Below, piece by piece: positions 45 to 49,476 of a stretch of DNA of 64,000 bases. Below the pieces are notes generated by a model, which was not told the DNA's origin, made no database searches, and saw only the letters and a program-made list of their open reading frames with translations. Origin of the DNA: a virus. Numbering within the stretch: the stretch's first letter is position 1; each line of letters begins with the position of its first letter. Made by a program: the position numbers and the translations under genes. Where the stretch lies: the IMG/VR virus record IMGVR_UViG_3300022746_000018. One strand, given 5' to 3'.

Positions 45-218
45 ATGAAAGACTTCAACACAATCATCATCACCAAGCGAGGCTGTCGGGAAGATGGCGT
101 AGCGTTCACTATGCACAAGTTCTCAGCCTCTACTCAAGAGCAGGTTCAGGCTATCATCAGCCACCCAAGCATCAAGGGTTGGAAGTATGGCATCAGCATT
201 GGTTATGCCAAGTTGTAA
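45..218 (+). CDS. hypothetical early protein (57 aa)
   Basis: ATG 45 follows the AAAGGAAAACTA RBS shared by most early genes. Hand translation MKDFNTIIITKRGC...IGYAKL, TAA at 216. Below the 60-aa cutoff of the ORF track. Confidence 0.6.
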   Translation: MKDFNTIIITKRGCREDGVAFTMHKFSASTQEQVQAIISHPSIKGWKYGISIGYAKL

Positions 219-241
219 ATGTCAGACCTATCATCTATAAT
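213..241 (+). promoter_or_regulatory. promoter, TTGTAA-N17-TATAAT with AAATGTC element
   Basis: -35-like 213-218, AAATGTC 217-223, TATAAT 236-241. Same AAATGTC-to--10 spacing as the other early promoters. Confidence 0.5.
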
Positions 242-266
242 AGACTTATCAAACAAAGGACAAAGA

Positions 267-479
267 ATGACTCACTACATCAAGACTCTACTCAAGGCTT
301 CGTTTCTATCACTAGCACTAACTATCTTGACTGTGTTTCTTGGTATCACTACCGCCACTAATTCAGACCCATACATTTCAGCCCTTGCTCAGATGGGAAC
401 CTTTATTATTGGTATGTTCACTATCGTTGCTATCATCAGCACTACCGTCTATATGTTTGTTGGTGATGAAAGAATCTAG
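267..479 (+). CDS. small membrane protein (70 aa)
   Basis: Internal ATG 267 of track ORF 219..479 has the RBS AAAGGACAAAGA. The ATG at 219 lies inside the promoter motif. Two hydrophobic helices are present. Confidence 0.6.
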   Translation: MTHYIKTLLKASFLSLALTILTVFLGITTATNSDPYISALAQMGTFIIGMFTIVAIISTTVYMFVGDERI

Positions 480-507
480 CGTGTCAGCTTGACAACTGAT
501 CTCGAAA

Positions 508-521
508 GGGGTCGGCCCCCC
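508..521. repeat. G4-N4-C4 early-region element, copy 1
   Basis: GGGGTCGGCCCCCC, intergenic, about 40 nt upstream of the promoter at 559. Confidence 0.8.
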
Positions 522-553
522 TGTTATCAAACTGTTATAAGAAATGTTACAAA
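522..553 (+). promoter_or_regulatory. three direct TGTTAYMAA repeats upstream of -35
   Basis: TGTTATCAA 522, TGTTATAA 533, TGTTACAAA 545, spaced 11-12 nt. Confidence 0.5.
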
Positions 554-558
554 TATGC

Positions 559-588
559 TTGACAAATGTCTGAGGGTATGCTTATAAT
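559..588 (+). promoter_or_regulatory. early promoter, TTGACA + AAATGTC + TATAAT
   Basis: TTGACA 559-564, AAATGTC 564-570, TATAAT 583-588. Confidence 0.75.
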
Positions 589-612
589 AGATACATAAAG
601 AAAGGACAACTA

Positions 613-828
613 ATGTCAAACATCGAATGGGTAGTAACTCTAGTAACCGAGGACAACACTGTAGTTCGTGGTGTTCAGAAGGCTATGTTTGGTCACCCTG
701 CCATTGACTTCTTCTCAAAGCGTGTAGGTATCAAGGCTAAGGCAGCCTCTGCTGAGAAGATGGTTCACTTTGAACAGTTTCTAGCACAGGGTCTACGCAA
801 TCCGCTTACCGCTGAAGAACTAGCCTAG
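613..828 (+). CDS. hypothetical early protein (71 aa)
   Basis: Track ORF with the RBS AAAGGACAACTA immediately upstream. Confidence 0.75.
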   Translation: MSNIEWVVTLVTEDNTVVRGVQKAMFGHPAIDFFSKRVGIKAKAASAEKMVHFEQFLAQGLRNPLTAEELA

Positions 829-840
829 GGCTACCAGGGC

Positions 841-869
841 GACACGCCCGACAGCGTGGGTCGGCCCCC
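841..869. repeat. 20-mer GACACGCCCGACAGCGTGGG plus G4-N4-C4 element, copy 2
   Basis: The 20-mer 841-860 is identical to 2732-2751. It is followed by the GGGTCGGCCCCC core at 858-869. Confidence 0.8.
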
Positions 870-891
870 TGTGGATAACTCTGTGGATAAA
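870..891 (+). promoter_or_regulatory. two perfect DnaA boxes (TGTGGATAA x2)
   Basis: TGTGGATAA at 870-878 and 883-891 is the reverse complement of the TTATCCACA consensus. The pair lies about 60 nt upstream of the promoter at 950. Confidence 0.6.
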
Positions 892-922
892 GCTACGAAG
901 ATCGATCCAAATCCCCTAGCTC

Positions 923-942
923 TGTTATCAAATCGTTACCAA
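923..942 (+). promoter_or_regulatory. direct repeats TGTTATCAA / CGTTACCAA upstream of -35
   Basis: Same repeat family as 522-553. CTGTTATCAAA is identical to 521-531. Confidence 0.45.
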
Positions 943-949
943 AAAAGAC

Positions 950-979
950 TTGACAAATGTCCTAGGGTGTGCCTATAAT
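950..979 (+). promoter_or_regulatory. early promoter, TTGACA + AAATGTC + TATAAT
   Basis: TTGACA 950-955, AAATGTC 955-961, TATAAT 974-979. Confidence 0.75.
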
Positions 980-1003
980 AGAGGTATCAAGAAAGGAAAA
1001 CTA

Positions 1004-1195
1004 ATGAAAATCAACTTCAATACCCCAAGCGTAGAGGCTCAATACATTGCCCTTACCGCTCACTGGGACGACCGTTTCTATGTAAACGAATGCCTCTGTG
1101 GCTATGAGTTGTTTGGTCGCACTAAGTCAGACCTAATCAAGGCTTTTGAGTTTCACATTCAGACTTGCGACACGAAAAGCCTAATGAAGAAATAA
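1004..1195 (+). CDS. hypothetical early protein (63 aa)
   Basis: Internal ATG of track ORF 950..1195 follows AAAGGAAAACTA. The start used by the track is the TTG of the -35 box. Confidence 0.7.
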   Translation: MKINFNTPSVEAQYIALTAHWDDRFYVNECLCGYELFGRTKSDLIKAFEFHIQTCDTKSLMKK

Positions 1196-1218
1196 ATGTC
1201 TGCCCCTACTGTTAGACT
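1194..1218 (+). promoter_or_regulatory. AAATGTC-type promoter (no TTGACA), -10 TAGACT
   Basis: AAATGTC 1194-1200. TAGACT 1213-1218 starts 19 nt after the first base of AAATGTC, the conserved offset. Confidence 0.45.
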
Positions 1219-1242
1219 TGTAACACAACGAAAGGAAAACTA

Positions 1243-1398
1243 ATGAACGAAATCTTCCCTCTAAGCAAGGAATACTACGCAGAGGACTTTGGCTTCTGTG
1301 ACCTATGCGACAACTACACCCCATTCGATGAATGTGTCGAATGTGGCGAAGATGTTTGTGTTGTTTGCCACAACGCCTACGGTTGCCCTGAAGACTAA
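1243..1398 (+). CDS. Cys-rich mini-protein (51 aa), zinc-ribbon-like
   Basis: AAAGGAAAACTA RBS. Hand translation MNEIFPLSKEYYAEDFGFCDLCDNYTPFDECVECGEDVCVVCHNAYGCPED. Confidence 0.6.
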   Translation: MNEIFPLSKEYYAEDFGFCDLCDNYTPFDECVECGEDVCVVCHNAYGCPED

Positions 1399-1421
1399 AT
1401 GTCTGTGGCTACTGCTAAAAT
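1397..1421 (+). promoter_or_regulatory. AAATGTC-type promoter, -10 TAAAAT
   Basis: AAATGTC 1397-1403, TAAAAT 1416-1421. Confidence 0.45.
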
Positions 1422-1445
1422 AAAATCACTACGAAAGGAAAACTA

Positions 1446-1625
1446 ATGACCAAAGATGAAAAACTAGCCCTGTTGGAAGACCTATTCCGTCAGGAAGATG
1501 ACCGCCAGAGTATGGTCTATGCTCGTATGTATGGAATGCTTGCCGCTTGGGTTCGTGATGAAGACCTGAACCAGATGCTTCAGTTTCGTGGCGTAAACCT
1601 TGACAACCTAACCGAAACCCTGTAA
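1446..1625 (+). CDS. hypothetical early protein (59 aa)
   Basis: AAAGGAAAACTA RBS. Hand-translated MTKDEKLALLEDLF...NLTETL. Confidence 0.6.
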   Translation: MTKDEKLALLEDLFRQEDDRQSMVYARMYGMLAAWVRDEDLNQMLQFRGVNLDNLTETL

Positions 1626-1654
1626 ACTAGTAGAAACGAACAAAGGACAGAAAA

Positions 1655-1831
1655 ATGATGACTCGCAAAGACTATGTAGCAACCGCAGAGATTTTGAACG
1701 AATACAAGGACAAGATTGACTTTTTGATTTTGGCAGACATCGCTGAAGACTTTGCTGAAATGTTTGCTGAAGACAATGAGCGTTTCAACCACCAGCGTTT
1801 TATTGACGCAGTATTCGCAGAGGGGAACTAA
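1655..1831 (+). CDS. hypothetical early protein (58 aa)
   Basis: RBS AAAGGACAGAAAA. Hand-translated MMTRKDYVATAEIL...AEGN. The stop overlaps the next start (TAATG). Confidence 0.6.
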   Translation: MMTRKDYVATAEILNEYKDKIDFLILADIAEDFAEMFAEDNERFNHQRFIDAVFAEGN

Positions 1832-1968
1832 TGGGATATGTCTTGGTTGCTCTTGGGTATATTGGCCTTTGTGCTTATATTGTTTTTCAAGCAATAACGC
1901 TTGATAAATTCCGAAAGTGGAATGCAGAGTTGCGACTTGAGGTTGAGTTAAACAAACCTCCATTCTAA
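1831..1968 (+). CDS. small membrane protein (45 aa)
   Basis: TAATG coupling to the upstream gene. N-terminal hydrophobic helix GYVLVALGYIGLCAYIVF. Confidence 0.5.
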   Translation: MGYVLVALGYIGLCAYIVFQAITLDKFRKWNAELRLEVELNKPPF

Positions 1969-2059
1969 AATAGGAATATGTCTGCCTGGGGCTGGATCCC
2001 CCAAACCAAGCGGTAGACAACTAGATCTGGTAGCTAAAATAAAATAGGCTACCACATCT

Positions 2060-2074
2060 GGGGGTCGGCCCCCC
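2060..2074. repeat. G4-N4-C4 element, copy 3
   Basis: GGGGGTCGGCCCCCC. It is preceded by the GGTAGC...GCTACC hairpin at 2029-2056. Confidence 0.8.
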
Positions 2075-2117
2075 TACATCTAGTAGCTTACGTAGCTTAA
2101 GACACAAGATCTAGATC

Positions 2118-2144
2118 TGTGGAATGTTATAAATCTGTTACCAA
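2118..2144 (+). promoter_or_regulatory. direct repeats TGTGGAATG / TGTTATAAA / TGTTACCAA
   Basis: Phased about 11 nt apart, directly upstream of the -35 at 2151. Confidence 0.45.
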
Positions 2145-2150
2145 ATAGAC

Positions 2151-2180
2151 TTGCTAAATGTCTGTTGGTCTTGCTATACT
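2151..2180 (+). promoter_or_regulatory. early promoter, TTGCTA + AAATGTC + TATACT
   Basis: TTGCTA 2151-2156, AAATGTC 2156-2162, TATACT 2175-2180. Confidence 0.65.
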
Positions 2181-2205
2181 TATTTTATCAACGAAAGGAC
2201 AACTC

Positions 2206-2340
2206 ATGACCCCAAACGCTATCGTATTCTACAACGGCTTCAACCTACTACTTGACATTGTGTTCGTATACATTGCTTATCGTATTGGCAAGTCTATCGG
2301 ATACCGCCAAGGCGAAGAGGATAACCAGCCACCATTCTAA
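2206..2340 (+). CDS. small membrane protein (44 aa)
   Basis: Internal ATG of track ORF 2158..2340 follows AAAGGACAACTC. Hydrophobic core FNLLLDIVFVYIAY. Confidence 0.6.
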   Translation: MTPNAIVFYNGFNLLLDIVFVYIAYRIGKSIGYRQGEEDNQPPF

Positions 2341-2341
2341 T

Positions 2342-2366
2342 AAATGTCATACCCCTATGCTAAACT
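2342..2366 (+). promoter_or_regulatory. AAATGTC-type promoter, -10 TAAACT
   Basis: AAATGTC 2342-2348, TAAACT 2361-2366. Confidence 0.45.
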
Positions 2367-2393
2367 AAATACATAATCAAGAAAGGCAAACTA

Positions 2394-2531
2394 ATGGCTA
2401 AGAGCAACTACACCCTGTATTCATACAACTTCAACGGCAGCGAGGTTGTTTCGGCAATCCACGCCTATGACTTGAGCAAGTTTCTAACAGAACACCCAGA
2501 CGCAAAGCCATTCAAGCGAGAGGTAAACTAA
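2394..2531 (+). CDS. hypothetical early protein (45 aa)
   Basis: RBS AAAGGCAAACTA. Hand-translated MAKSNYTLYSYNFNG...KREVN. Confidence 0.55.
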   Translation: MAKSNYTLYSYNFNGSEVVSAIHAYDLSKFLTEHPDAKPFKREVN

Positions 2532-2680
2532 TGTCAAGCCCTATTATCTGCCAAATGTGTGATGAAGCACGAGCAACCGAGGTTGGCGTATTTGTTGATG
2601 GTTCGATGATGGCTCTATGCGATGAATGCCTAGAGAAGTCTGAAGAGTTTATCGTGAATGTTGGGTGTCTAGCAGACTAG
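2531..2680 (+). CDS. zinc-ribbon mini-protein (49 aa)
   Basis: TAATG coupling. CQMC...CDEC motif pair. Confidence 0.55.
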   Translation: MSSPIICQMCDEARATEVGVFVDGSMMALCDECLEKSEEFIVNVGCLAD

Positions 2681-2731
2681 ACGCTAGGGGGCTAGGGTGA
2701 GCCTAGAAATAGCAAATAAACTTAGCCCCAC

Positions 2732-2760
2732 GACACGCCCGACAGCGTGGGCCGACCACC
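2732..2760. repeat. 20-mer GACACGCCCGACAGCGTGGG plus inverted G4-N4-C4 element, copy 4
   Basis: The 20-mer is identical to 841-860. It is followed by GGGCCGACCACC. Confidence 0.8.
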
Positions 2761-2792
2761 TGGATCTGGATCAGCATTAAGTTTAAGATAAT

Positions 2793-2817
2793 AAATGTCC
2801 TAGGTCTGTGATAGGCT
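2793..2817 (+). promoter_or_regulatory. AAATGTC-type promoter, -10 TAGGCT
   Basis: AAATGTC 2793-2799, TAGGCT 2812-2817. Confidence 0.35.
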
Positions 2818-2823
2818 GAAGCC

Positions 2824-2928
2824 ATGAACGTAGAAGAATTTAACGAGTTTTTTGCTGGCATGACCGCTGAGGAGATTCAGCAGTGGTATGACGAAAACAT
2901 GTTCAATAAGGATTGGGATTGGACCTAG
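2824..2928 (+). CDS. hypothetical mini-protein (34 aa)
   Basis: ATG 2824 lies 7 nt after the putative -10, so it may be leaderless. There is no clear RBS. Confidence 0.35.
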   Translation: MNVEEFNEFFAGMTAEEIQQWYDENMFNKDWDWT

Positions 2929-2930
2929 AA

Positions 2931-2941
2931 GGGTCGGCCCC
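2931..2941. repeat. G4-N4-C4 element, copy 5
   Basis: GGGTCGGCCCC directly after the stop at 2928. Confidence 0.75.
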
Positions 2942-2969
2942 TAGCTTATCAAATCAATTAAGATAATGC

Positions 2970-2998
2970 TTGACATTTCCTAATTTATGATGTAAGAT
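2970..2998 (+). promoter_or_regulatory. promoter TTGACA-N17-TAAGAT driving a leaderless gene
   Basis: TTGACA 2970-2975, TAAGAT 2993-2998. The ATG at 3005 is 7 nt past the -10. Confidence 0.6.
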
Positions 2999-3004
2999 AA
3001 TACT

Positions 3005-3175
3005 ATGAAGAAAAACAAGAAGCCATTGGGCAAAGCCAATGAAGCAAGACGCAAGGCAGAAGCAAAGGCACTATTTCAGTCTATGCTATCCAACCACGCT
3101 AGTGTAGTTATCCCTAATCGTTTCAAGGGTAGTCGTCAAGCAAACATTCGCAAGGCTATTAGCGAGTCTTACTAA
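3005..3175 (+). CDS. small basic protein (56 aa), leaderless
   Basis: Hand-translated MKKNKKPLGKANEARRKAEAKALF...ISESY. No RBS; the start coincides with the predicted TSS. Confidence 0.55.
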   Translation: MKKNKKPLGKANEARRKAEAKALFQSMLSNHASVVIPNRFKGSRQANIRKAISESY

Positions 3176-3177
3176 AT

Positions 3178-3202
3178 AAATGTCATACCCCCCTGTTATA
3201 CT
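3178..3202 (+). promoter_or_regulatory. AAATGTC-type promoter, -10 TATACT
   Basis: AAATGTC 3178-3184, TATACT 3197-3202. Confidence 0.5.
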
Positions 3203-3230
3203 ATAAACAACCTCAAAAGAAAGGCTCACA

Positions 3231-3698
3231 ATGGGCACTCGTAATCTAACCAAGGTAATCAACAGCGATGGCGTTACTGTCGTTGCACAGTATGGTCAAT
3301 GGGATGGCTATCCAGAAGGTCAAGGCTTAGTTGCTTTGCACCATGCTCGTATGGCACACGCTATTTCTAATGCCCTGCCGTATGTTCGTTTTATTTCAGA
3401 AGATGAAGCCAATGCCCTATTTGCTGGCTATGACTTTGCTAATGGAAACTTTAGCCGTGACTTTCCTACCTTTAGCCGTGATACTGGTGCAGACATTCTA
3501 GGTGTTATTGCCTATTCCGCTGGTGAAGTATTGCTTATTGATAACAGCGAGTTTGAGAATGACGACCTGTTTTGTGAAGGTGTCTACACTATTGACTTTG
3601 AGTCTAACAAGTTTATTAGCAACTTTGGCAAGGTAGTTGAGTTTGACTTGAGTAATCTGCCTACTAAGGAACAGTATTTGGATGCCTTTAGGGCTTGA
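3231..3698 (+). CDS. hypothetical protein (155 aa)
   Basis: Track ORF with the RBS AAAGGCTCACA. Confidence 0.8.
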   Translation: MGTRNLTKVINSDGVTVVAQYGQWDGYPEGQGLVALHHARMAHAISNALPYVRFISEDEANALFAGYDFANGNFSRDFPTFSRDTGADILGVIAYSAGEVLLIDNSEFENDDLFCEGVYTIDFESNKFISNFGKVVEFDLSNLPTKEQYLDAFRA

Positions 3699-3723
3699 CA
3701 ATACCCCCACTATCCTGTAAACT
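3695..3723 (+). promoter_or_regulatory. promoter TTGACA-N17-TAAACT
   Basis: Overlaps the stop of the upstream gene. Confidence 0.5.
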
Positions 3724-3751
3724 AATACCAACCCTAAAGAAAGAAGGCACT

Positions 3752-3970
3752 ATGCCTAGTTATGTTACTCGCCAGACTCGTGTTTCAGAAGTCAGCAAGT
3801 GGAATGAGATTTACACTAGCGACATCGGGACGGTATGGAAGGCAGAAAACTTTTTTGGATACTACAAAACCAAACTAAATGGTAAGACAAAGTATTTCAA
3901 GGGAGAGATGGCAGAGATGGACATTGAGAGAATGTTTCGTGATGCTGGAGATTGGGAGTGTATGCTATGA
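3752..3970 (+). CDS. hypothetical protein (72 aa)
   Basis: Internal ATG of track ORF 3695..3970 follows AAAGAAGGCACT. Confidence 0.65.
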   Translation: MPSYVTRQTRVSEVSKWNEIYTSDIGTVWKAENFFGYYKTKLNGKTKYFKGEMAEMDIERMFRDAGDWECML

Positions 3971-4041
3971 GCGATGAACCAACTTGTGCCTATTCCTTTG
4001 ATGGAGATAACTGCGAAGTCTGCTTTCCTGATGAAGGTTAG
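3967..4041 (+). CDS. possible Cys-containing micro-protein (24 aa)
   Basis: ATGA overlap with the upstream stop. Very short. Confidence 0.25.
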   Translation: MSDEPTCAYSFDGDNCEVCFPDEG

Positions 4042-4044
4042 CTA

Positions 4045-4066
4045 GGCCCCTTCGGGGGCCGACCCC
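4045..4066. repeat. G4-N4-C4 element, copy 6 (inverted) with UUCG hairpin
   Basis: GGCCCC-TTCG-GGGGCC followed by GACCCC. Confidence 0.8.
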
Positions 4067-4098
4067 TCCCTACACACCCCCTTGATCAAAAAATTTTG

Positions 4099-4107
4099 TT
4101 TAAGAAA
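4099..4107 (+). promoter_or_regulatory. TTTAAGAAA box 3 nt upstream of -35
   Basis: TTTAAGAAAtgcTTGACT. The same arrangement occurs at 5870-5887. Confidence 0.5.
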
Positions 4108-4110
4108 TGC

Positions 4111-4139
4111 TTGACTTTTGCTTGGAACTTTGCTAAACT
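4111..4139 (+). promoter_or_regulatory. promoter TTGACT-N17-TAAACT (TGn extended)
   Basis: TTGACT 4111-4116, TGcTAAACT 4131-4139. Confidence 0.65.
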
Positions 4140-4166
4140 AAACATACAAAGAAAGGCTAACCCCCA

Positions 4167-4886
4167 ATGGCACTTATCAGAAGCAAAGACCGTAAAGTCA
4201 CTAATGCTGTATCACCTAATGGCAAGACCCCTACTATTGCTAATACCTTTGGACTACCTGCTGGCAAGGCTTTTTCATGCCCTGGGGCTACCTCGGTTTG
4301 CGAGAAGGTTTGCTATGCTGGAAAGTTGGAAAAAGTATACAAGGGCGTTCGCAACATCCTAGTGACTAACTATGAGCAACTATTGGCTACTGATAAAATG
4401 GGCATGGTCAATTTGTTGAACGACATGATTGTTGATTTCAAAAAGGATTGCGACAAGCGTGGGGCAGAAAAGTTGTTCCGTATCCATTGGGATGGCGATT
4501 TCTTTAGTGTCACCTACGCTATGGCATGGGCTATGGTTATTGAACTACACAAGGATGTTCAATTCTGGGCATACACTCGTTCAGATTTTGCTGTTCCATA
4601 CCTGTATGACATTGACAACCTAGCCCTGTATTTCTCAACTGATAGTGCTAATCGTGCTTTGGGCATTCGCCTCAAGAAGCAATTCGGTATCAAGTTGGCA
4701 TACCTTGCAAACACTTTTGCAGAAGGTAAAGCAGACTTCAAGCAACTACAAGACAAGTCTGCAGTGCCATGCCCTGAAAACAACAAGAAAGTCAAGTTGA
4801 TTAGCGAACAGGGTTCAGCGTGTGTTCTATGCTCTCAATGTGTATTTGCTCGTAATGACATTTTGTTTAGTGTGACTAAGAAATAG
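4167..4886 (+). CDS. conserved phage protein with N-terminal Cys cluster (GP88-like, tentative)
   Basis: 239-aa track ORF with the RBS AAAGGCTAACCCCCA. The CPGATSVCEKVCY motif is present. The family assignment is from memory only. Confidence 0.8.
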   Translation: MALIRSKDRKVTNAVSPNGKTPTIANTFGLPAGKAFSCPGATSVCEKVCYAGKLEKVYKGVRNILVTNYEQLLATDKMGMVNLLNDMIVDFKKDCDKRGAEKLFRIHWDGDFFSVTYAMAWAMVIELHKDVQFWAYTRSDFAVPYLYDIDNLALYFSTDSANRALGIRLKKQFGIKLAYLANTFAEGKADFKQLQDKSAVPCPENNKKVKLISEQGSACVLCSQCVFARNDILFSVTKK

Positions 4887-4892
4887 GTAAGT

Positions 4893-4955
4893 ATGGAAAT
4901 AGTATTAGTTATCATGGCTGCCCTGATTGTGTTGCTGGCTTTTCTAAACCAGTGA
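4893..4955 (+). CDS. possible hydrophobic micro-peptide (20 aa)
   Basis: MEIVLVIMAALIVLLAFLNQ with a weak RBS TAGGTAAG. Confidence 0.25.
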   Translation: MEIVLVIMAALIVLLAFLNQ

Positions 4956-4971
4956 CCCTTCGGGGCCGACC
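4955..4971. repeat. G4-N4-C4 element, copy 7 (inverted)
   Basis: ACCCTTCGGGGCCGACC. Confidence 0.75.
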
Positions 4972-4992
4972 TGGATCGACCTCCTAAAATCT

Positions 4993-5010
4993 TTTAAGAA
5001 AGTTTAAGAG
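4993..5010 (+). promoter_or_regulatory. TTTAAGAAA / TTTAAGAG direct repeats upstream of -35
   Basis: Copies at 4993-5001 and 5003-5010. Confidence 0.5.
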
Positions 5011-5015
5011 TATGC

Positions 5016-5044
5016 TTGACATTCTCCTGAATCTCTGGCATACT
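5016..5044 (+). promoter_or_regulatory. promoter TTGACA-N17-CATACT
   Basis: TTGACA 5016-5021, CATACT 5039-5044. Confidence 0.6.
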
Positions 5045-5070
5045 ATATATATCGAAGAAAGGCCAACTAT

Positions 5071-5319
5071 ATGCTAATGAAGTATGACTACGACTACCAA
5101 GCCTTTGTATCAGGCGATGGCAGTTATGGTGTAGACACTGTTGTTACATTTAACTACGATGAGTTTCATGAGCGTTACCCCAATGCATGGTCAAGCCTTG
5201 ATGAGGTTCACGACTCTACTCGTATTGAGTTGATTATGGCTACCCTTGAGCAGGATGAGGAAGCCATCCGTGACCTTTGTGACGAGAACGACCTTAACCC
5301 TCTAGACTTCCTAGATTAA
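5071..5319 (+). CDS. hypothetical acidic protein (82 aa)
   Basis: Track ORF with the RBS AAAGGCCAACTAT. Confidence 0.75.
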   Translation: MLMKYDYDYQAFVSGDGSYGVDTVVTFNYDEFHERYPNAWSSLDEVHDSTRIELIMATLEQDEEAIRDLCDENDLNPLDFLD

Positions 5320-5341
5320 TGTCATACCCATACCGTATACT
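5317..5341 (+). promoter_or_regulatory. AAATGTC-type promoter (TAATGTC), -10 TATACT
   Basis: TAATGTC 5317-5323, TATACT 5336-5341. Confidence 0.4.
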
Positions 5342-5372
5342 TAGACGTAAACCCCAAGAAGAAGGAACCTTC

Positions 5373-5777
5373 ATGAACGAAGAAAACGCAGTTATCGACA
5401 ACACCATTGCAAGCGAGCACCCAGTGCTTATTCAGTATAAGACCCAGATTGCTACTCTTCAGTCATCTCTTGATGACATGCGTCAACGTTGGGAACGCAC
5501 GTTCAGTGCAAAGAACACTTTCGAAGAGAAGGTGAAGAACGTTCTTATTGAGGCCATTGAGGACCATGACGAAGATACCGTCCGCTACATTGCTAATCAG
5601 CTAAACGTTGACCTAACGGTTACCAAGACCTACGAGATTAACGTGACCTTCCGAGTAGACGTTGAGTTGGAGATTGGTGAAGACATTGACCCAGATTGGG
5701 ACTTTGACTTTACCGTATCCAGTGACAAGGTTGTTGACTATAGCTCTGACATTATTTGGAGCAACGAAGTTTCATAG
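5373..5777 (+). CDS. hypothetical protein (134 aa)
   Basis: Internal ATG of track ORF 5319..5777 follows GAAGGAACCTTC. Confidence 0.7.
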   Translation: MNEENAVIDNTIASEHPVLIQYKTQIATLQSSLDDMRQRWERTFSAKNTFEEKVKNVLIEAIEDHDEDTVRYIANQLNVDLTVTKTYEINVTFRVDVELEIGEDIDPDWDFDFTVSSDKVVDYSSDIIWSNEVS

Positions 5778-5818: not shown

Positions 5819-5841
5819 GCCCCCTTCGGGGGTCGGCCCCC
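5819..5841. repeat. G4-N4-C4 element, copy 8 with UUCG hairpin
   Basis: GGCCCCCTTCGGGGGTCGGCCCCC. Confidence 0.8.
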
Positions 5842-5857
5842 TGGGTGATCGAAACTT

Positions 5858-5881: not shown

Positions 5882-5910
5882 TTGACAAATCCCCTGTTAT
5901 GCCCCATAAT
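5882..5910 (+). promoter_or_regulatory. promoter TTGACA-N17-CATAAT
   Basis: TTGACA 5882-5887, CATAAT 5905-5910. Confidence 0.65.
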
Positions 5911-5965
5911 AGTATTACAAGGAAATACGGAAGCAAGAAACAGTCTAGAAAATAAATAAAAAAGT

Positions 5966-6006
5966 TTGACAAAATGCTTGACAAATCCTGTTTTCCCTGT
6001 CATAAT
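5966..6006 (+). promoter_or_regulatory. tandem promoter, two TTGACA boxes and CATAAT
   Basis: TTGACA 5966-5971 and 5978-5983, CATAAT 6001-6006. Confidence 0.6.
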
Positions 6007-6079
6007 AGATAAGTAAACAAAAACGGAGAACAAACTCCCCTAACAAAATCCTAATACCGATTAGGTGAAAGAAGCAAAA

Positions 6080-6226
6080 ATGACCGCTATTACTGTTGGC
6101 TCACAGTTCGCAACCCAGAAGTCTGGCGTTGTTGGTATTGTTCGTGAGGTAGTTGCTAACAAGAACGGCACTCAGCGTGTTCGTCTTGAGGTAAACGGTG
6201 CTGACCGTTGGACTACTGTCAAGTAA
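6080..6226 (+). CDS. hypothetical protein (48 aa)
   Basis: RBS AGGTGAAAGAAG. Hand-translated MTAITVGSQFATQKSG...WTTVK. Confidence 0.55.
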   Translation: MTAITVGSQFATQKSGVVGIVREVVANKNGTQRVRLEVNGADRWTTVK

Positions 6227-6394: not shown

Positions 6395-6826
6395 ATGGCT
6401 CGTGCCCTATCTGTAAAAGTTCCAACCGCAAGTGTAATCGCTCTTATTGAGCAGAAGATTGCTGACATTGAAGTAAAGGTTGCTTCCTACAACGAAGATG
6501 TAAAGGCATACAAGGAAGCATACAAGCAGTATAAGCGTGACCTTGTTTCTGCTGCTGTTGAGGCTATCAAGAACAACGCTGATGAAGATGCTTTTGACGC
6601 TACCACTTCATACAATGGTCGTGATGTAAACCTGACCATTAGCGGTTCGTTGATTATCCTGCCAGAGCCACCTGCTCAGGTTACTGACCCAAACCAGCGT
6701 GAGTGGATTGGTCGTGAGCACATCTCTCGCCTTGAGGTTTTGAAGAAGAACCTTGCTGTGCTAAAGATGACCACCCAAGAGGAAATCAACGCAAGTTCCT
6801 ACTCGTCTGTAATGGACTTGCTGTAA
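6395..6826 (+). CDS. hypothetical protein (143 aa)
   Basis: Internal ATG of track ORF 6356..6826 follows AAAGAAAGAAAACTAAA. Confidence 0.75.
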   Translation: MARALSVKVPTASVIALIEQKIADIEVKVASYNEDVKAYKEAYKQYKRDLVSAAVEAIKNNADEDAFDATTSYNGRDVNLTISGSLIILPEPPAQVTDPNQREWIGREHISRLEVLKKNLAVLKMTTQEEINASSYSSVMDLL

Positions 6827-6923: not shown

Positions 6924-6995
6924 GCCCCCATAGGATAGTGGTTAGTCTTCTGGTCTTTCATACCAGCGGTGAGAGTTCGATTCTCTCTGGGGGTG
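6924..6995 (+). tRNA. tRNA-Glu (anticodon TTC)
   Basis: Hand-folded cloverleaf. Acceptor GCCCCCA/TGGGGGT, anticodon loop CTTTCAT, T arm GAGAG-TTCGATT-CTCTC. Confidence 0.8.
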
Positions 6996-7013
6996 CTTCG
7001 GGGGTCGGCCCCC
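6996..7013. repeat. G4-N4-C4 element, copy 9
   Basis: CTTCGGGGGTCGGCCCCC immediately 3' of tRNA-Glu. Confidence 0.8.
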
Positions 7014-7073
7014 TCAGCTCATGATCCATTTACGATAACGTTACGACACGCTAAAATATTTTCCCAAATAGTC

Positions 7074-7139: not shown

Positions 7140-8159
7140 ATGGCTCACGAACTAGAAATCAATGAAGAAACTGGCGAAGCAACTTTTGCGTCTTTGCGTG
7201 AACCTGCTTGGCATGGACTAGGCACTGTATTTACTGAAGAAGTAACTACTGCTAAGATGTTGGAACTTGCTCACCTTGACAACTGGAATGTTCGCCTAGA
7301 GGACGTTGCTGTGCCAGAGGGTTTTGCTAGTGACAAGACCTACTCATTCGTTACTCGCACTAACCCATTCAATAAAGACCAGAACGACATTCTTGGTGTT
7401 GTTGGTGAGCGTTACAAGGTTTTGCAGAATGAAGACCTGTTTACCTTTGGTGACAACCTGCTAGATGGTGGTAGCCGTTGGGAAACTGCTGGCTCTATCA
7501 AGGGTGGACGACAGGTGTTTGGTTCGCTTGCTCTTGAGCGTGAAACTATTCTAGACCCTAATGGTGTATCTGATAAGGTAAAGACTTATCTGCTAATCAA
7601 TACCTCGCACGATGGTTCTGTGGCTATTCAGGCAAGCATTACCCCTGTTCGTGTTGTCTGTGCAAATACTCTGAACCTTGCTCTGTCTGCTGTTCGTGGC
7701 AAGAAAGCACCTAAGCAGACTTTCAAGATTCGTCACACTCAGACTGCAGAGGGCAAGATTGCTATTGCACGAGAAGCACTTGGCTTGGCTAATGCTTACA
7801 TGGACGAGTTTGACCTAATGGCTAAGGCTATGATTGAGAAGACCGTTACCGATAACCAGTTCTTGGAAATCATTGCTAAGGCATACCCTGCACCAGAAAA
7901 GGACGCTAAGGGTTCGTTCAAGAAGTATGACGCTAAGGTAGATTTGCTTCAGGGCATTTATCGTGGACAGTTCAACGACACTATCGCTGGAACTGCTTGG
8001 GGTGCTTACAATGCATTGACCGAGCGTCTGGACTGGTATCGTTCTGCACGAGGTGGCAGTAACGAATCTATCTTGGCTAGTGCTTCAGGCTTTGACCCAA
8101 TGGTGAACGCTGAGAAGAACCGCCTAATGAAGATTGTTCAGGAAGTGGTTATGGCGTAA
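7140..8159 (+). CDS. DUF932-family protein (phage/plasmid-like, tentative)
   Basis: 339-aa track ORF. N-terminal LREPAWHGLG pattern recalled from DUF932. RBS GAAAGAAGTGG. Confidence 0.8.
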   Translation: MAHELEINEETGEATFASLREPAWHGLGTVFTEEVTTAKMLELAHLDNWNVRLEDVAVPEGFASDKTYSFVTRTNPFNKDQNDILGVVGERYKVLQNEDLFTFGDNLLDGGSRWETAGSIKGGRQVFGSLALERETILDPNGVSDKVKTYLLINTSHDGSVAIQASITPVRVVCANTLNLALSAVRGKKAPKQTFKIRHTQTAEGKIAIAREALGLANAYMDEFDLMAKAMIEKTVTDNQFLEIIAKAYPAPEKDAKGSFKKYDAKVDLLQGIYRGQFNDTIAGTAWGAYNALTERLDWYRSARGGSNESILASASGFDPMVNAEKNRLMKIVQEVVMA

Positions 8160-8308: not shown

Positions 8309-8479
8309 ATGCCTGTTTATACCTATAGAGTGACTGCTACTTATTGGATTGATGTTGAAGCCCCTGATGAATCTACCGCTGAACAGTTGGCTATGACTAA
8401 CTATGAAGATGGTGCTTATGACGGTGTAGATTCCTGTGACCTAATGGCGGTAGAGGAAGATGAGGAAGTAGATGAGTAA
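8309..8479 (+). CDS. hypothetical acidic protein (56 aa)
   Basis: Internal ATG of track ORF 8285..8479 follows AAAGGACAACCCCTA. Confidence 0.65.
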   Translation: MPVYTYRVTATYWIDVEAPDESTAEQLAMTNYEDGAYDGVDSCDLMAVEEDEEVDE

Positions 8480-8657
8480 CTTTATCCGTGCCAGTCTAGT
8501 CTTTGAATACTTTCCAGAAGAAGACGAGATAATGCAAGACCTATCCCCAGAAGAGCAAGAAGAGTATGTTCTAGGGACTGTCATTGAAGACATTTTTTCC
8601 TATCAGTTGCACGGTGAATTGCAAGAGTGTATCAAGATTGAGAGAATCTATGATTGA
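8472..8657 (+). CDS. hypothetical acidic protein (61 aa)
   Basis: Track ORF; 8-nt overlap with the upstream gene. Confidence 0.65.
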   Translation: MSNFIRASLVFEYFPEEDEIMQDLSPEEQEEYVLGTVIEDIFSYQLHGELQECIKIERIYD

Positions 8658-8757
8658 TGATTTTCGTAAACTACTAGACCTAATAATGTCGGAGGGTCTT
8701 GATAGAATAGACTCTCTATCCGATGATGAACTGAGAAAGGTAATGGTTGATGGCTAA
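8650..8757 (+). CDS. hypothetical mini-protein (35 aa)
   Basis: Overlap-coupled. Hand-translated MIDDFRKLLDLIMSEG...VMVDG. Confidence 0.4.
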   Translation: MIDDFRKLLDLIMSEGLDRIDSLSDDELRKVMVDG

Positions 8758-8893
8758 AACCTATGAAGAGGCTATCGGTGAAGCATTTGCTGACGGTGTG
8801 AAGTATGCCCTAGAGTATCTTGAAGAAGTCTATGGCGAGGGAATAATGGAAACGGACATTTGGAATGATTACTTTGGAGAAGACAATGCTTGA
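8750..8893 (+). CDS. hypothetical mini-protein (47 aa)
   Basis: Overlap-coupled. Hand-translated MAKTYEEAIGEAFADG...GEDNA. Confidence 0.45.
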   Translation: MAKTYEEAIGEAFADGVKYALEYLEEVYGEGIMETDIWNDYFGEDNA

Positions 8894-11370: not shown

Positions 11371-11580
11371 ATGGCAAAACAAACTAATGAAGAGAAAGCA
11401 GTAAGCGTAATCGCAAAACTACTAGCAAGTCTAGATTTGGACATTGAAATGGTTGGTCGCTATCTAGCCCAAAATGTCAGTAGGGTAGTGTATAATCGTT
11501 TTATAACAATCGCTGAGAGTGCGGAATACGAGCAAGAGAAAAAGAAAGCAAGGATTGAAGACTATGGAAACTACTTTTGA
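11371..11580 (+). CDS. hypothetical protein (69 aa)
   Basis: Track ORF. Confidence 0.65.
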   Translation: MAKQTNEEKAVSVIAKLLASLDLDIEMVGRYLAQNVSRVVYNRFITIAESAEYEQEKKKARIEDYGNYF

Positions 11581-11845
11581 AAACAAGTGCGTTATTCTAG
11601 CAGACCTATGGCTAGAGTATCGGGAAGACCCAGAGTTTGAAGACTACATCAAGTATAATGACCTATCACTTCCACTAGCATACGCTATCACTAATAAGAT
11701 AATCGAACCTAGTGACAGAGCAAAGTCTTTCATCAACGAGGGATTTGCCTTGCTGCTTGATTTGCTAGATGTATCAGATGACAACTATCAAAGTCTAGAT
11801 GACTTGTTTGCTGGTTCTATTGGAGACACTCCAGAAGAAAATTAA
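11564..11845 (+). CDS. hypothetical acidic protein (93 aa)
   Basis: Internal ATG of track ORF 11519..11845 follows AGGATTGAAGACT. It is the last gene of the + block. Confidence 0.65.
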   Translation: METTFENKCVILADLWLEYREDPEFEDYIKYNDLSLPLAYAITNKIIEPSDRAKSFINEGFALLLDLLDVSDDNYQSLDDLFAGSIGDTPEEN

Positions 11846-23693: not shown

Positions 23694-23919
23694 CTTCTCT
23701 AACTACCAACACAATAGCTCCATTAGCCTCAAATGCCATTTTTACCTTAGACATGTATTCTACAGCCTTACGCTTATCAAAATCATTCAGTCTCATAAAG
23801 ACATCTTCTTTAGCTAAGATTGTGATAAACATGTCATTGTCAAAAACATCTACATAAAAGCCTTTTGGACAGTAAGAGTCTAGAGAGCGAAAAGCCCTCT
23901 TCATGTCGTTTGTATACAT
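23674..23919 (-). CDS. hypothetical protein (81 aa)
   Basis: Track ORF. Confidence 0.7.
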   Translation of the reverse strand: MYTNDMKRAFRSLDSYCPKGFYVDVFDNDMFITILAKEDVFMRLNDFDKRKAVEYMSKVKMAFEANGAIVLVVREGGKDVE

Positions 23920-24215
23920 TATTTGTCTCTATCTATTGTTAGATTTGCCCATTTTTCAGCCCAGTCTTGTTTGGATTTGTGTCTATTAAATTCCCTGGAA
24001 ATTTTTCCATTCTCTAAATAAACTCCACCCCAAACACCCCAAGCTTTTTGAGAGATGCCAACAGCAAAACAGTGTCTAACCAACGGACAACTAGCACATA
24101 GTTCATCTATGTCTCGTCTTAGTTCGTATGATTCATCATTTTCATAATCATCATAAAACAAGTTGGTGTCAAATGATTTACATATAGCATCGTCTTTCCA
24201 AGCATTATTACTCAT
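23919..24215 (-). CDS. whiB: WhiB-like Fe-S transcription factor
   Basis: C-x(n)-C-x2-C-x5-C pattern (ICKSFD...CASCPLVRHC) followed by GVWGG. Confidence 0.85.
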   Translation of the reverse strand: MSNNAWKDDAICKSFDTNLFYDDYENDESYELRRDIDELCASCPLVRHCFAVGISQKAWGVWGGVYLENGKISREFNRHKSKQDWAEKWANLTIDRDK

Positions 24216-34662: not shown

Positions 34663-37713
<3,051 letters not shown>

Positions 37714-37721
<8 letters not shown>

Positions 37722-38124
37722 TTAGTTTCTCCAACCTCTTTCTTACTTTTTGGACATCTTCTGATGTTCCAAATATTTCTACCCTGGCAATTATGGGGAT
37801 GCCAGTCTTCCCTGAAATCATTTCTGCAGCTTTACAATAATGATTACCAAAATTAGTATTGCCCAGACCTACAATTCCTATTAACAATTCTCTGTTTTCA
37901 GGTATGTTAAGGAAGCTTCTTACTTGTCTGGGTATGGCGGATCTTTCGCTTCCGCCTCCGTAGGTAGGGACAAAAAGAACATACTTGTTCTTAGCAATGA
38001 TAGGGTCAGAATCGTCCCAAGATATAGGGATCCGAATAATATCGTATTGTCCATTGTCAACCTTTTCTACGAATCGTTTTGTGTTCCCCGAATAATTGGA
38101 GAAATACACAATAGTGATAGACAT
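37714..38124 (-). CDS. nrdI: flavodoxin-like NrdI
   Basis: [17 protein letters not shown]...VPTYGGG pattern, directly upstream of nrdE. Confidence 0.9.
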
Positions 38125-38151
38125 CTATTTTACCTCCATTTTTTGATATCC

Positions 38152-38187
38152 AGGGACAAGAAAGGGGAAGGATATTTCGCCTTCCCC
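38152..38187 (-). terminator. rho-independent terminator
   Basis: GGGGAAGG-CGAAAUAU-CCUUCCCC followed by UUUCUU. Confidence 0.75.
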
Positions 38188-38204
38188 AATCTATTTTATC
38201 CCAA

Positions 38205-39188
38205 TTACTTGAGAAGTGCAACCTTGTGCTTTGGATTAGCCTTGTTCCACTTTGCAGCAAGAGCATTATACTTAGCCTTGTTGCCAGCAGTAGCAGCATC
38301 TGCAAGGGCAAGCTTTGCAGTAAGGTCTGCAACCTGTGCAGATAGAGCAGTCTTTTCAGCAGTTAGTGCAGTTACCTTGCCATTTGCCACAGCAAGTTCT
38401 GCATCCTTTTCTGCTACTAGAGCAGCAAGGTCTACAACCTTAAGGGTTCCACGAACGAAACCTACAGGAGCAGCAAGACCAGTAATAGCAGTTGCTACAG
38501 TAGCAGTTGCAATTAAATCATACGAACCTACAGCAAGACCAGTCAGCTCCTTGGTAGCTTCGCCTCTTGCATCAGTGCTTACCGAATAGGTATTGGTGGC
38601 AGTGCCACTAACTACCTGAATTGCTACAGTTGAACCTGCAACAGCATTTCCGAATACGTCAGTTCCAGCTACAGTTACCTTAGCAGTGGTGCCAAGAGCA
38701 GCAGTTGGTGCTGAAAGTGCAATAGTATTTAGTGCACCTGCAGTTCCCTTTACGTAATAAGTTCCAATAGTAGCAGTTCCAGCGGTGATCACAATCTTTC
38801 CAACAGCAGTTGACTTAGTGTAGGCATAGAACGTAGCACTAGTTCCAGTTCCAGTAGCAACAGAAGCAGATGCGGTTCCTGCAGAAGCAGTAACAGAGTC
38901 TCCAACAGTGGATACAAGAAGTGCATTGGTTGCAGTAGCGGTTACGGTTACGTTGTTGTCTAGACCAGTAACAGCAATACGAACTGCATCAGTTACCTGA
39001 ACAGCATTATCTGCTGGGACTGGAAGGATAACGGCGGTTGCCTCAGTTAGACCATCGGTGGTGGTTGCTACAGCATTAACAGTTAGACCAGTTGCTACTG
39101 CAGCGTTTGCAGGTGCAGCAACTAGTGCGGTTGTAGCAAGTGCTACTGCAGTGGCAATAGCGATAAGTGGCTTCTTTAGTGAAGTCAT
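38205..39188 (-). CDS. Sec-signal Thr/Ala/Val-rich beta-repeat protein with C-terminal coiled coil
   Basis: Signal peptide MTSLKKPLIAIATAVALATTALVAAPANA. Ig-like low-complexity repeats. C-terminal heptads AEKDAELAVANGKVTALTAEKTALSAQVADLTAKL. Confidence 0.8.
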   Translation of the reverse strand: MTSLKKPLIAIATAVALATTALVAAPANAAVATGLTVNAVATTTDGLTEATAVILPVPADNAVQVTDAVRIAVTGLDNNVTVTATATNALLVSTVGDSVTASAGTASASVATGTGTSATFYAYTKSTAVGKIVITAGTATIGTYYVKGTAGALNTIALSAPTAALGTTAKVTVAGTDVFGNAVAGSTVAIQVVSGTATNTYSVSTDARGEATKELTGLAVGSYDLIATATVATAITGLAAPVGFVRGTLKVVDLAALVAEKDAELAVANGKVTALTAEKTALSAQVADLTAKLALADAATAGNKAKYNALAAKWNKANPKHKVALLK

Positions 39189-39207
39189 GTATTTTCCTTT
39201 TCTATAG

Positions 39208-44065: not shown

Positions 44066-44092
44066 TAGTTTTCCTTAAACATTGTATTTCTA

Positions 44093-49373: not shown

Positions 49374-49402
49374 ATATTTTCCTTACGTTTTGTTGTTATA
49401 AA

Positions 49403-49431
49403 AGTATGACATAGTTTTTTTTGAAAGTCAA
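49403..49431 (-). promoter_or_regulatory. promoter TTGACT-N17-CATACT upstream of dnaE
   Basis: -35 at 49431-49426 and -10 at 49408-49403. Confidence 0.55.
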
Positions 49432-49463: not shown

Positions 49464-49476
49464 AAGCTAATGCATA

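What the first reader, a model, noticed from the sequence alone, without database searches (positions are those of the whole stretch)
213..5341. Conserved AAATGTC element at about -30 defines the early promoters and replaces the -35 box in about seven of them
Ten early promoters carry AAATGTC (TAATGTC once), and a TAnnnT hexamer starts 19 nt after its first base in every case. The hexamers are 236 TATAAT, 583 TATAAT, 974 TATAAT, 1213 TAGACT, 1416 TAAAAT, 2175 TATACT, 2361 TAAACT, 2812 TAGGCT, 3197 TATACT and 5336 TATACT. In three promoters (559, 950, 2151) the element is fused to TTGACA or TTGCTA. In the other seven there is no recognisable TTGACA, and the element usually overlaps the upstream stop codon (TAAATGTC). 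A fixed-position element near -30 that substitutes for -35 resembles T4 MotA-box middle promoters. It could mark a phage-directed RNAP appropriation step or an alternative sigma. A side effect is that the embedded ATG creates false long ORFs, for example 219..479.
Basis: seen in the sequence. Interest (0 to 1): 0.62.

Follow-up and report, generated by a model that had tools for sequence, protein, structure and literature searches.

The report
Actinophage promoters with a TGTC box
The repeated AAATGTC signal is a real promoter part shared by a large family of uncultured freshwater actinobacterial phages; it sits exactly 12 bases before an ordinary -10 box where the usual -35 box would otherwise act, and the protein that reads it is unknown.

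Summary
The pattern [A/T]AATGTC-N12-TAnnnT occurs 12 times in the window. All 12 are on the + strand and in front of small genes of the 1-12 kb block. Chance expectation is 0.57.

The window is an uncultured phage of an actinobacterium; it carries WhiB and DnaE. In 80 related IMG/VR loci the pattern occurs 563 times on the gene strand and 31 times on the other strand. In near-complete relatives it is confined to one 10-13 kb small-gene block.

- **Core element:** TGTCnGA(SS) at about -28 to -20, followed by TGn in about half the sites, then TAnnnT.
- **Spacing:** the gap is rigidly 12 nt.
- **Start points:** in 88 of 839 sites the start codon lies exactly 7-8 nt after the hexamer. These are leaderless mRNAs and fix the transcription start.
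- **Interchange:** the same orthologous gene carries a TGTC-box promoter in some phages and a TTGACA promoter in others.

These are genuine promoters in which the box stands where -35 would act. No sigma, MotA or AsiA homologue was found.

The scan has noted analogous "-30 box plus -10" promoter families in other phages, but not this motif.

The parts
217..248 (+). TGTC-box promoter: AAATGTC 217-223, -10 TATAAT 236-241, predicted start A248. Partial -35 TTGTAA at 213. Serves gene 267-479.
559..595 (+). Hybrid promoter: TTGACA 559-564 fused to AAATGTC 564-570, -10 TATAAT 583-588 (18-nt spacer). Follows a GC hairpin. Serves gene 613-828.
950..986 (+). Hybrid promoter: TTGACA 950-955 fused to AAATGTC 955-961, -10 TATAAT 974-979. 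Serves gene 1004-1195.
1194..1225 (+). TGTC-box-only promoter overlapping the stop codon of gene 1004-1195. TGt + TAGACT 1213-1218. Serves gene 1243-1398.
1397..1428 (+). TGTC-box-only promoter overlapping the stop codon of gene 1243-1398. TGc + TAAAAT 1416-1421. Serves gene 1446-1625.
2151..2187 (+). Hybrid promoter: TTGCTA 2151-2156 fused to AAATGTC 2156-2162, TGc + TATACT 2175-2180. Serves gene 2206-2340.
2342..2373 (+). TGTC-box-only promoter directly after the stop codon of gene 2206-2340. TGc + TAAACT 2361-2366. Serves genes 2394-2531 and 2531-2680.
2793..2824 (+). TGTC-box-only promoter after a hairpin. TGa + TAGGCT 2812-2817. The ATG of ORF 2824-2928 lies exactly 7 nt after the hexamer, so this is a leaderless candidate.
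3178..3209 (+). TGTC-box-only promoter after the stop codon of gene 3005-3175. TGt + TATACT 3197-3202. Serves gene 3231-3698.
5317..5348 (+). TGTC-box-only promoter (TAATGTC) overlapping the stop codon of gene 5071-5319. TATACT 5336-5341, no TGn. Serves gene 5373-5777.
8684..8715 (+). TGa + TAGAAT 8703-8708. Lies between genes 8472-8657 and 8750-8893.
11472..11503 (+). TATAAT 11491-11496. Lies upstream of gene 11564-11845.
2970..2998 (+). Comparison class: canonical TTGACA-N17-TAAGAT promoter after a hairpin, no TGTC box. Serves the 56-aa basic protein gene 3005-3175.
4111..4139 (+). Comparison class: canonical TTGACT-N17-TAAACT promoter of the GP88-family gene 4167-4886. In 35 of 67 distinct orthologous contexts in relatives this position holds a TGTC-box promoter instead.
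5882..6006 (+). Comparison class: two tandem canonical promoters (TTGACA-N17-CATAAT at 5882 and 5978) ahead of the conserved 48-aa gene 6080-6226.

Best explanation
The element is the upstream half of a phage-family-specific promoter class. The -10 part (TGn in about half the sites, TAnnnT, start 7 nt downstream) is read by the host's primary-type sigma (sigma A) holoenzyme. That part is shared with the canonical TTGACA-N17 promoters interleaved in the same block. Upstream, a TGTCnGA(SS) box at about -28 to -20 takes the place of -35; in this phage it reads AAATGTC at -31 to -25. The gap to the -10 hexamer is exactly 12 nt. The box-plus-RBS cassette is portable and sits in front of many unrelated small genes, often overlapping the preceding stop codon. 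My inference, not shown, is that the box is a positive element read by a sequence-specific protein held at a fixed place on RNA polymerase. That protein is most likely a phage-specified factor, either made from the -35-containing promoters or delivered with the DNA. This would be the logic of T4 MotA/AsiA sigma appropriation, built from unrelated and still unidentified proteins.
For: Shown:
- The window has 12 sites against 0.57 expected, all on the gene strand.
- Eighty relatives have 563 sites on the gene strand and 31 on the other strand.
- The gap is exactly 12 nt in 652 cases, against 3 at 11 nt and 8 at 13 nt.
- T-12, A-11 and T-7 emerge without being imposed. TGn and a T/A pair 6-7 nt after the hexamer are conserved, and there is no information at the normal -35 position.
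- Start codons lie exactly 7 nt (72 sites) or 8 nt (16 sites) after the hexamer and almost never at 1-6 or 9-21 nt. These are leaderless mRNAs.
- Upstream of the orthologous GP88-family gene, 35 distinct contexts are TGTC-only, 14 are -35-only and 5 are hybrid.
- The box precedes 183 unrelated protein clusters, and 39 clusters are served by both classes in different phages.
- The canonical class has the same TGn, -10 and start features.

For a positive role:
- Box-only promoters show no stronger -10 or TGn than those that also have a -35.

For a phage-specific reader:
- In near-complete genomes the box is confined to one 10-13 kb block.
- It is absent from the closest cultured relative examined, Streptomyces phage Wakanda.
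- It is kept in a relative as distant as 40% WhiB identity and 35% GC.
- The 5' flank and the spacer subtype are phage-specific.
- The geometry equals that of T4 middle promoters.
Against:
- No MotA, AsiA or sigma homologue was found, and no convincing DNA-binding early protein.
- The box-driven genes are small accessory ORFs of the kind usually transcribed immediately by unmodified host polymerase. The replication genes on the other strand lack the box, unlike T4 middle genes.
- In actinobacteria TAnnnT alone can make a promoter (PMC3898074), so a helper is not strictly required.
- The host is unknown, so host promoters could not be examined.
- Related sites are partly shared by descent, so the counts overstate independence.
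Confidence: 0.45

Rival explanations
1. Host polymerase alone. These are immediate-early promoters used by unmodified host sigma A holoenzyme, possibly with RbpA, CarD or a host transcription factor. The TGTC box would then be an auxiliary element read by a host component, tuned to the unknown host lineage.
For: The genes served are typical early host-takeover ORFs. In M. tuberculosis TAnnnT promoters show no conserved -35. About 27% of boxes sit next to the TTG of a properly spaced -35, so sigma region 4 and the box reader can coexist or alternate. The box is conserved across very divergent phages, as expected for a conserved host machine. No phage regulator was found.
Against: A 2-bit, rigidly spaced TGTC signal has not been reported in the actinobacterial TSS maps consulted (otherwise my own knowledge). 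The related Streptomyces phage lacks it. The same phages also use textbook TTGACA-N17 promoters, so host region 4 reads TTGACA and cannot also reach a box 5-8 bp closer to the -10. The flank and spacer subtypes are phage-specific.
Confidence: 0.3
2. Operator for shut-off. The promoters are -10-only promoters that work unaided, and the box is the binding site of a phage repressor that turns the small-gene block off later. This would be comparable to the asymmetric, orientation-locked stoperator sites of mycobacteriophage L5.
For: The sites are asymmetric and locked to one orientation, number 10-28 per genome, lie in short intergenic gaps and overlap the RNA polymerase footprint. The GP88-family gene links this block to cluster A mycobacteriophages. 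The L5 stoperator consensus, recalled from memory, also contains TGTC.
Against: A steric block does not need a spacing exact to one base pair. Box-only promoters are not compensated by better -10 or TGn elements. The box and -35 replace each other at the same gene. The sites never occur without a -10 or outside the block, unlike stoperators.
Confidence: 0.12
3. Alternative or phage-encoded sigma factor. In this reading AAATGTC is a -35 element with a short 12-nt spacer, as in sigma B or sigma H type promoters.
For: Short spacers are typical of some group 3 sigma factors (my own knowledge). The spacing is rigid.
Against: The -10, TGn and start features are identical to those of the canonical TTGACA class. 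Hybrids carry a sigma A-type -35 at 17-18 nt. No Sigma70_r2 domain is present in five relatives that are 82-100% complete, although the positive controls matched.
Confidence: 0.08
4. RNA-level signal or mere recombination scar. The conserved cassette would act in the read-through mRNA, as a processing or translation signal, or would be kept only because it mediates gene shuffling.
For: The cassettes are transcribed through from upstream promoters, and they flank hypervariable ORFs (1082 protein clusters in 81 loci).
Against: There is no long-range covariation, only neighbouring CC/GG coupling. There is no Rfam match. Leaderless genes and post-terminator copies tie the box to the downstream -10 rather than to the upstream gene. 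Shuffling may be a by-product of the cassette but does not explain the 1-bp spacing constraint.
Confidence: 0.05

Closest known systems
Bacteriophage T4 middle promoters (MotA box plus sigma-70 -10; sigma appropriation by MotA/AsiA)
   Same: Both combine a host-type TAnnnT -10 with a phage-specific box that begins with an A/T triplet followed by TG. In both, the box ends 12 bp from the -10 and stands in place of -35. About half the sites have TGn. Many lie inside transcription units that start at -35-containing promoters (PMC2988021).
   Different: The box sequence differs: TGTCnGA(SS) here, TGCTTtA in T4. The spacing is exact here rather than 12 +/- 1. No MotA or AsiA homologue was found. The host is an actinobacterium. 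The promoters serve small accessory genes, not replication genes. No activator has been demonstrated.
Actinobacterial sigma A promoters without a -35 (TAnnnT or TGnTAnnnT, frequent leaderless mRNAs), as mapped in M. tuberculosis
   Same: Both have a TAnnnT -10, no conserved -35, a purine start about 7 nt downstream, and leaderless genes starting at +1 (PMC3898074).
   Different: The M. tuberculosis promoters show no conserved element upstream of -10. Here a near-invariant TGTC lies at a fixed distance, and TGn occurs in about 50% of sites against 7% in M. tuberculosis.
Stoperators of cluster A mycobacteriophages (L5 gp71 sites; recalled from memory, not checked here)
   Same: Both are short asymmetric sites in many copies, in small intergenic gaps, in one orientation relative to transcription.
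   Different: Stoperators are spread over both genome arms and need no -10 at a fixed distance. The present sites always carry one and are confined to one block.
Promoter-early stem-loop (PeSL) cassettes of T4-type phages (mobile regulatory cassettes; recalled from memory)
   Same: Both are near-identical promoter cassettes that flank hypervariable small early ORFs and plausibly promote their shuffling.
   Different: PeSLs carry canonical sigma-70 early promoters plus a stem-loop. Here the cassette has no -35 and no conserved hairpin.

Membership tests
T4-type MotA-dependent middle promoters | Sigma-70-type -10 element TAnnnT with a start about 7 nt downstream | tested here: met
T4-type MotA-dependent middle promoters | Box centred near -30, 12 +/- 1 bp upstream of -10, in place of -35 | tested here: met
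   Gap of exactly 12 nt. No information at the -35 position. T4 values are from PMC2988021.
T4-type MotA-dependent middle promoters | MotA box consensus (a/t)(a/t)(a/t)TGCTTtA | tested here: not met
   The consensus here is aAAATGTCnGASS. Only the WWWTG part is shared.
T4-type MotA-dependent middle promoters | Phage encodes MotA and AsiA | tested here: not met
   No Pfam match in the window proteins. PF09010 and PF09158 were absent from five near-complete relatives, but that search had no positive control.
T4-type MotA-dependent middle promoters | Activity depends on phage early proteins and appears after early transcription | not testable with these tools
Primary-sigma extended -10 promoters | TGn immediately upstream of TAnnnT makes -35 dispensable | tested here: inconclusive
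   TGn is present in only about 50% of box-only sites, the same as in sites that have a -35.
L5-type stoperators / repressor operators | Sites act without an associated promoter and occur throughout the genome | tested here: not met
   The sites are confined to one block. Without a -10 imposed, about half of gene-strand AATGTC occurrences carry TAnnnT at exactly 12 nt, and T-12, A-11 and T-7 emerge at 67-70%.
L5-type stoperators / repressor operators | Cognate repressor encoded by the phage | tested here: inconclusive
   No repressor-like domain was recognised in the window. Weak sigma-4-like HTH ORFs exist in some relatives only.
Promoters of a phage-encoded sigma factor | Phage carries a sigma-70 family gene | tested here: not met
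   PF04542 was absent from five relatives that are 82-100% complete, while the controls matched. Only sub-threshold region 4-like hits were found.

The most novel reading that the evidence does not exclude
A sigma-appropriation-like switch has evolved independently in a large family of freshwater actinophages. In this reading an unrecognised small phage protein, or a pair of them, docks on sigma A or RNA polymerase at a fixed position. It reads TGTCnGA at -28 and so redirects the host enzyme to dozens of -35-less promoters. That would be the first MotA/AsiA-type mechanism outside T4-like phages and in Gram-positive, high-GC-type transcription machinery.
Probability: 0.35. Interest if true: 0.8.

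Novelty: new variant of a known kind. Interest (0 to 1): 0.6.

Why it matters
The phage family is abundant in freshwater metagenomes: 571 DnaE relatives were found in IMG/VR. It infects uncultured actinobacteria, about whose transcription nothing is known.

The box gives a precise sequence rule for finding this family's promoters and true gene starts, including leaderless ones. It also corrects false long ORFs created by the embedded ATG.

The box defines a regulon of up to 28 promoters per genome in the relatives examined whose reader is unknown.

The compact 32-bp promoter could also be useful as a portable part for actinobacterial genetics.

Tried and rejected
- **Close cultured relatives:** megablast against INPHARED found none. 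The closest cultured relatives are Streptomyces phages, at 56% DnaE identity. One of them, Wakanda, has no box enrichment.
- **Host identification:** Host promoters therefore could not be examined.
- **Candidate readers:** Pfam and PHROGs on 78 window ORFs showed no sigma, MotA, AsiA or classical repressor.
  - The conserved 48-aa early protein folds as a small Tudor/KOW-like barrel, but matches are weak: Foldseek E >= 0.14 and a sub-threshold KOW hit.
  - The 56-aa basic protein is two helices.
  - PDB profile searches gave nothing.
  - A sigma-4-like HTH ORF at the head of the block occurs in two of the three relatives examined, so it is not a universal reader.
- **RNA structure:** no long-range covariation and no Rfam family.
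- **Compensation test:** -35 presence against TGn or -10 quality showed no relationship.
- **WhiA (GACAC) or CRP-like sites:** considered from memory and rejected, because the consensus does not fit.
- **Literature:** searches found no description of this motif.

Full report
**1. The observation**

The pattern [A/T]AATGTC-N12-TAnnnT has 12 matches in the 64-kb window, all on the + strand. Shuffles give 0.57, and none of 100 shuffles reached 12. The two extra sites are at 8684 and 11472, and both are intergenic. Allowing one mismatch adds only background. With the loose core TGTC-N12-TAnnnT the same 12 sites stand out, and nothing convincing appears on the - strand.

A gene map based on ribosome-binding sites places each site 31-92 nt upstream of a start codon, usually 49-56 nt. 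Several sites overlap the preceding TAA stop. The embedded ATG does create false long ORFs at 219-479 and 5319-5777.

**2. What the DNA is**

There is no close match among deposited phages. The window encodes the following:

| Feature | Coordinates |
|---|---|
| DnaE-type polymerase | 46095-49373 |
| DnaB | not listed |
| primase | not listed |
| RecA-like protein | not listed |
| class Ib ribonucleotide reductase | not listed |
| RtcB | not listed |
| tail proteins | not listed |
| WhiB | 23919-24215 |

WhiB points to an actinobacterial host. The closest cultured relatives are Streptomyces phages of the Stanwilliamsviridae, at 56% DnaE identity. IMG/VR holds 571 DnaE relatives and 172 relatives of the GP88-family gene 4167-4886. 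No whole genome is held for the window.

**3. Conservation**

- In 80 loci around the GP88 homologue (1.01 Mb), the pattern occurs 563 times on the gene strand and 31 times on the other strand.
- A logo from 481 unique sites reads aAAATGTC-n-G-A-S-S-c-nnn-T-G-n-TAnaaT-N5-TA, followed by an A/G-rich ribosome-binding site. It carries essentially no information at the position where a -35 hexamer would lie.
- Without imposing any -10, AATGTC on the gene strand is followed by T (68%), A (67%) and T (70%) at the three defining -10 positions.
- The gap between AATGTC and TAnnnT is 12 nt in 652 cases, 11 nt in 3 and 13 nt in 8.
- In five relatives that are 82-100% complete, the sites lie in one 10-13 kb block on one strand. 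For example, one genome has 26 sites between 40,059 and 52,716, and the controls give 0-1.
- Divergent relatives keep TGTC at the same distance but change the 5' flank to CACTGTC, GAGTGTC, ATTTGTC or AATTGTC.
- A 110-kb contig with only 40% WhiB identity and 35% GC still has about 13 TGTCAGw-N9-TAnnnT sites in its small-gene block.
- The family-wide core is therefore TGTCnGA followed by an S-tract. That tract is CC(C) or GG(K), and the subtype is largely genome-specific.
- Streptomyces phage Wakanda shows no enrichment: 7 and 7 matches on the two strands against controls of 3 and 3.

**4. Are they promoters?**

Five independent lines say yes.

- (a) The T-12, A-11, T-7 signature is present, TGn occurs in about half the sites, and a T/A pair lies 6-7 nt after the hexamer. 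In the window, 10 of 12 sites have A at that position.
- (b) The distance from the hexamer to the first start codon of a downstream ORF of at least 35 codons is bimodal.
  - There is a sharp peak at 7 nt (72 sites) and 8 nt (16 sites), with almost nothing at 1-6 or 9-21 nt.
  - There is a broad peak at 24-36 nt with a Shine-Dalgarno sequence.
  - A start codon placed exactly at the predicted +1, with no ribosome-binding site, only makes sense if transcription starts there. The window's own example is ATG 2824.
- (c) Upstream of the orthologous GP88-family gene, 35 distinct contexts have a TGTC-box promoter, 14 a TTGAC-N17 promoter, 5 both and 13 neither by the strict patterns. In the window this position is canonical (4111).
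- (d) The box precedes 183 unrelated protein clusters. Thirty-nine clusters are served by either class in different phages.
- (e) The 284 canonical TTGAC(A/T)-N17 promoters of the same blocks share the TGn, -10 and start features. The same sigma domains 2 and 3 therefore read both classes.

**5. Relation to -35**

About 27% of 849 core sites have the TTG of a -35 at 17 or 18 nt, as in TTGACAATGTC or TTGACAAATGTC. The rest have none. TGn frequency and -10 quality do not differ between sites with and without a -35. The box therefore appears to supply what -35 would supply, rather than sitting on self-sufficient promoters.

Sites that abut an upstream stop codon rarely have a -35 (9%). Sites with more than 60 nt of upstream non-coding DNA have one more often (34%; Fisher p = 2e-13). 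This may simply reflect coding constraint, since two-thirds of the free-standing sites also lack a -35.

**6. What reads the box**

This is unresolved. The rigid 1-bp spacing argues for a reader held at a fixed place on the polymerase, not for a free repressor.

- No Sigma70_r2 domain exists in five near-complete relatives, although the positive controls matched.
- No MotA or AsiA was found, but that search had no positive control.
- No regulator domain was recognised among the window's ORFs.

The conserved early genes are all behind -35-containing promoters in the window:

| Gene | Product | Notes |
|---|---|---|
| 6080-6226 | 48 aa | Tudor/KOW-like barrel; weak matches only |
| 6395-6826 | 143 aa | helical protein |
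| 4167-4886 | GP88 family | |
| 7140-8159 | DUF932 | |
| 3005-3175 | 56 aa, basic | two helices; found in 27 loci |

These are leads, not findings.

The geometry is the same as in T4 middle promoters: a WWWTG... box 12 +/- 1 bp from TAtaaT, with half the sites carrying TGn (PMC2988021). Two points weigh against a simple transfer of the T4 model. In M. tuberculosis 73% of primary starts have TAnnnT and no conserved -35 (PMC3898074), so a helper is not obligatory. The box also serves accessory small genes rather than the replication genes.

**7. Rejected alternatives**

An RNA structure is rejected: mutual information exists only between neighbouring positions 10-12, and there is no Rfam family. 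A stoperator-like operator is less likely because of the spacing, the lack of compensation and the confinement to promoters.

**8. Verdict**

This is a real and strongly conserved promoter class of an abundant, uncultured actinophage family. The -35 element is functionally replaced by a TGTCnGA box at about -28.

Its promoter reading is supported. Its MotA-like mechanism is plausible but untested.

The scan has reported comparable "box at -30 plus -10" promoter families in other phages. The kind is therefore known, but this member, its host group and its unknown reader are new.

Noticed in passing
window 2812-2928: ORF 2824-2928 (34 aa) starts exactly 7 nt after the -10 hexamer TAGGCT and has no ribosome-binding site, so it is a leaderless mRNA candidate. 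The same arrangement recurs in about 10% of box promoters in relatives, including the GP88-family gene in several phages.
   Followed up: yes
window 6924-6996: A tRNA-Glu (anticodon TTC) gene lies inside the small-gene block, between the 143-aa gene and the DUF932 gene.
   Followed up: partly
window 5882-6226: Two tandem near-consensus TTGACA-N17-CATAAT promoters and a leader of about 70-170 nt precede a 48-aa gene (6080-6226). The gene is conserved in 76 of 81 loci and even in the most distant relative. Its predicted fold is a small Tudor/KOW-like beta-barrel, and its function is unknown.
   Followed up: partly
window 3005-3175: A 56-aa, very basic two-helix protein with an invariant KG(S/T)R...KAI...E motif is the first gene after a hairpin and a canonical promoter. 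It was found in 27 related loci, and those loci have a higher box density (1.38 against 0.80 per kb).
   Followed up: partly
L169 (G001:C1:39283-39759), L170, L171: At the head of the small-gene block in relatives, outside the window, there is a conserved Cys-rich 66-72-aa protein. In two of three phages there is also a 61-71-aa sigma-4-like HTH protein. These are followed by conserved repeats (aaaatctgaaaaaa, aatctgaatatttt, tgtatgatacat, tagtgagcacaca) before the first hybrid promoter.
   Followed up: partly
L162-L168 (CAINGU010000031.1, 109,918 bp): A contig in a MAG labelled 'uncultured cyanobacterium' is a WhiB-encoding phage of this wider family. It carries the 48-aa gene and TGTC-box promoters, so it is probably mis-binned.
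   Followed up: partly
G001 40059-52716 vs G003 35179-47182: The spacer just after TGTC is nearly uniform within a genome and differs between genomes: nnACCC in one and GGTGGT in another. This suggests concerted evolution of the promoter copies or co-evolution with a reader.
   Followed up: no
window 510-530, 855-870, 2060-2075, 2930-2942, 4045-4070, 4957-4975, 5820-5842, 7000-7015: GC hairpins of the GGGGTCGGCCCC type, without a T-run, close each transcription unit. The next promoter nearly always has a -35 and an A/T-rich repeat region upstream.
   Followed up: no
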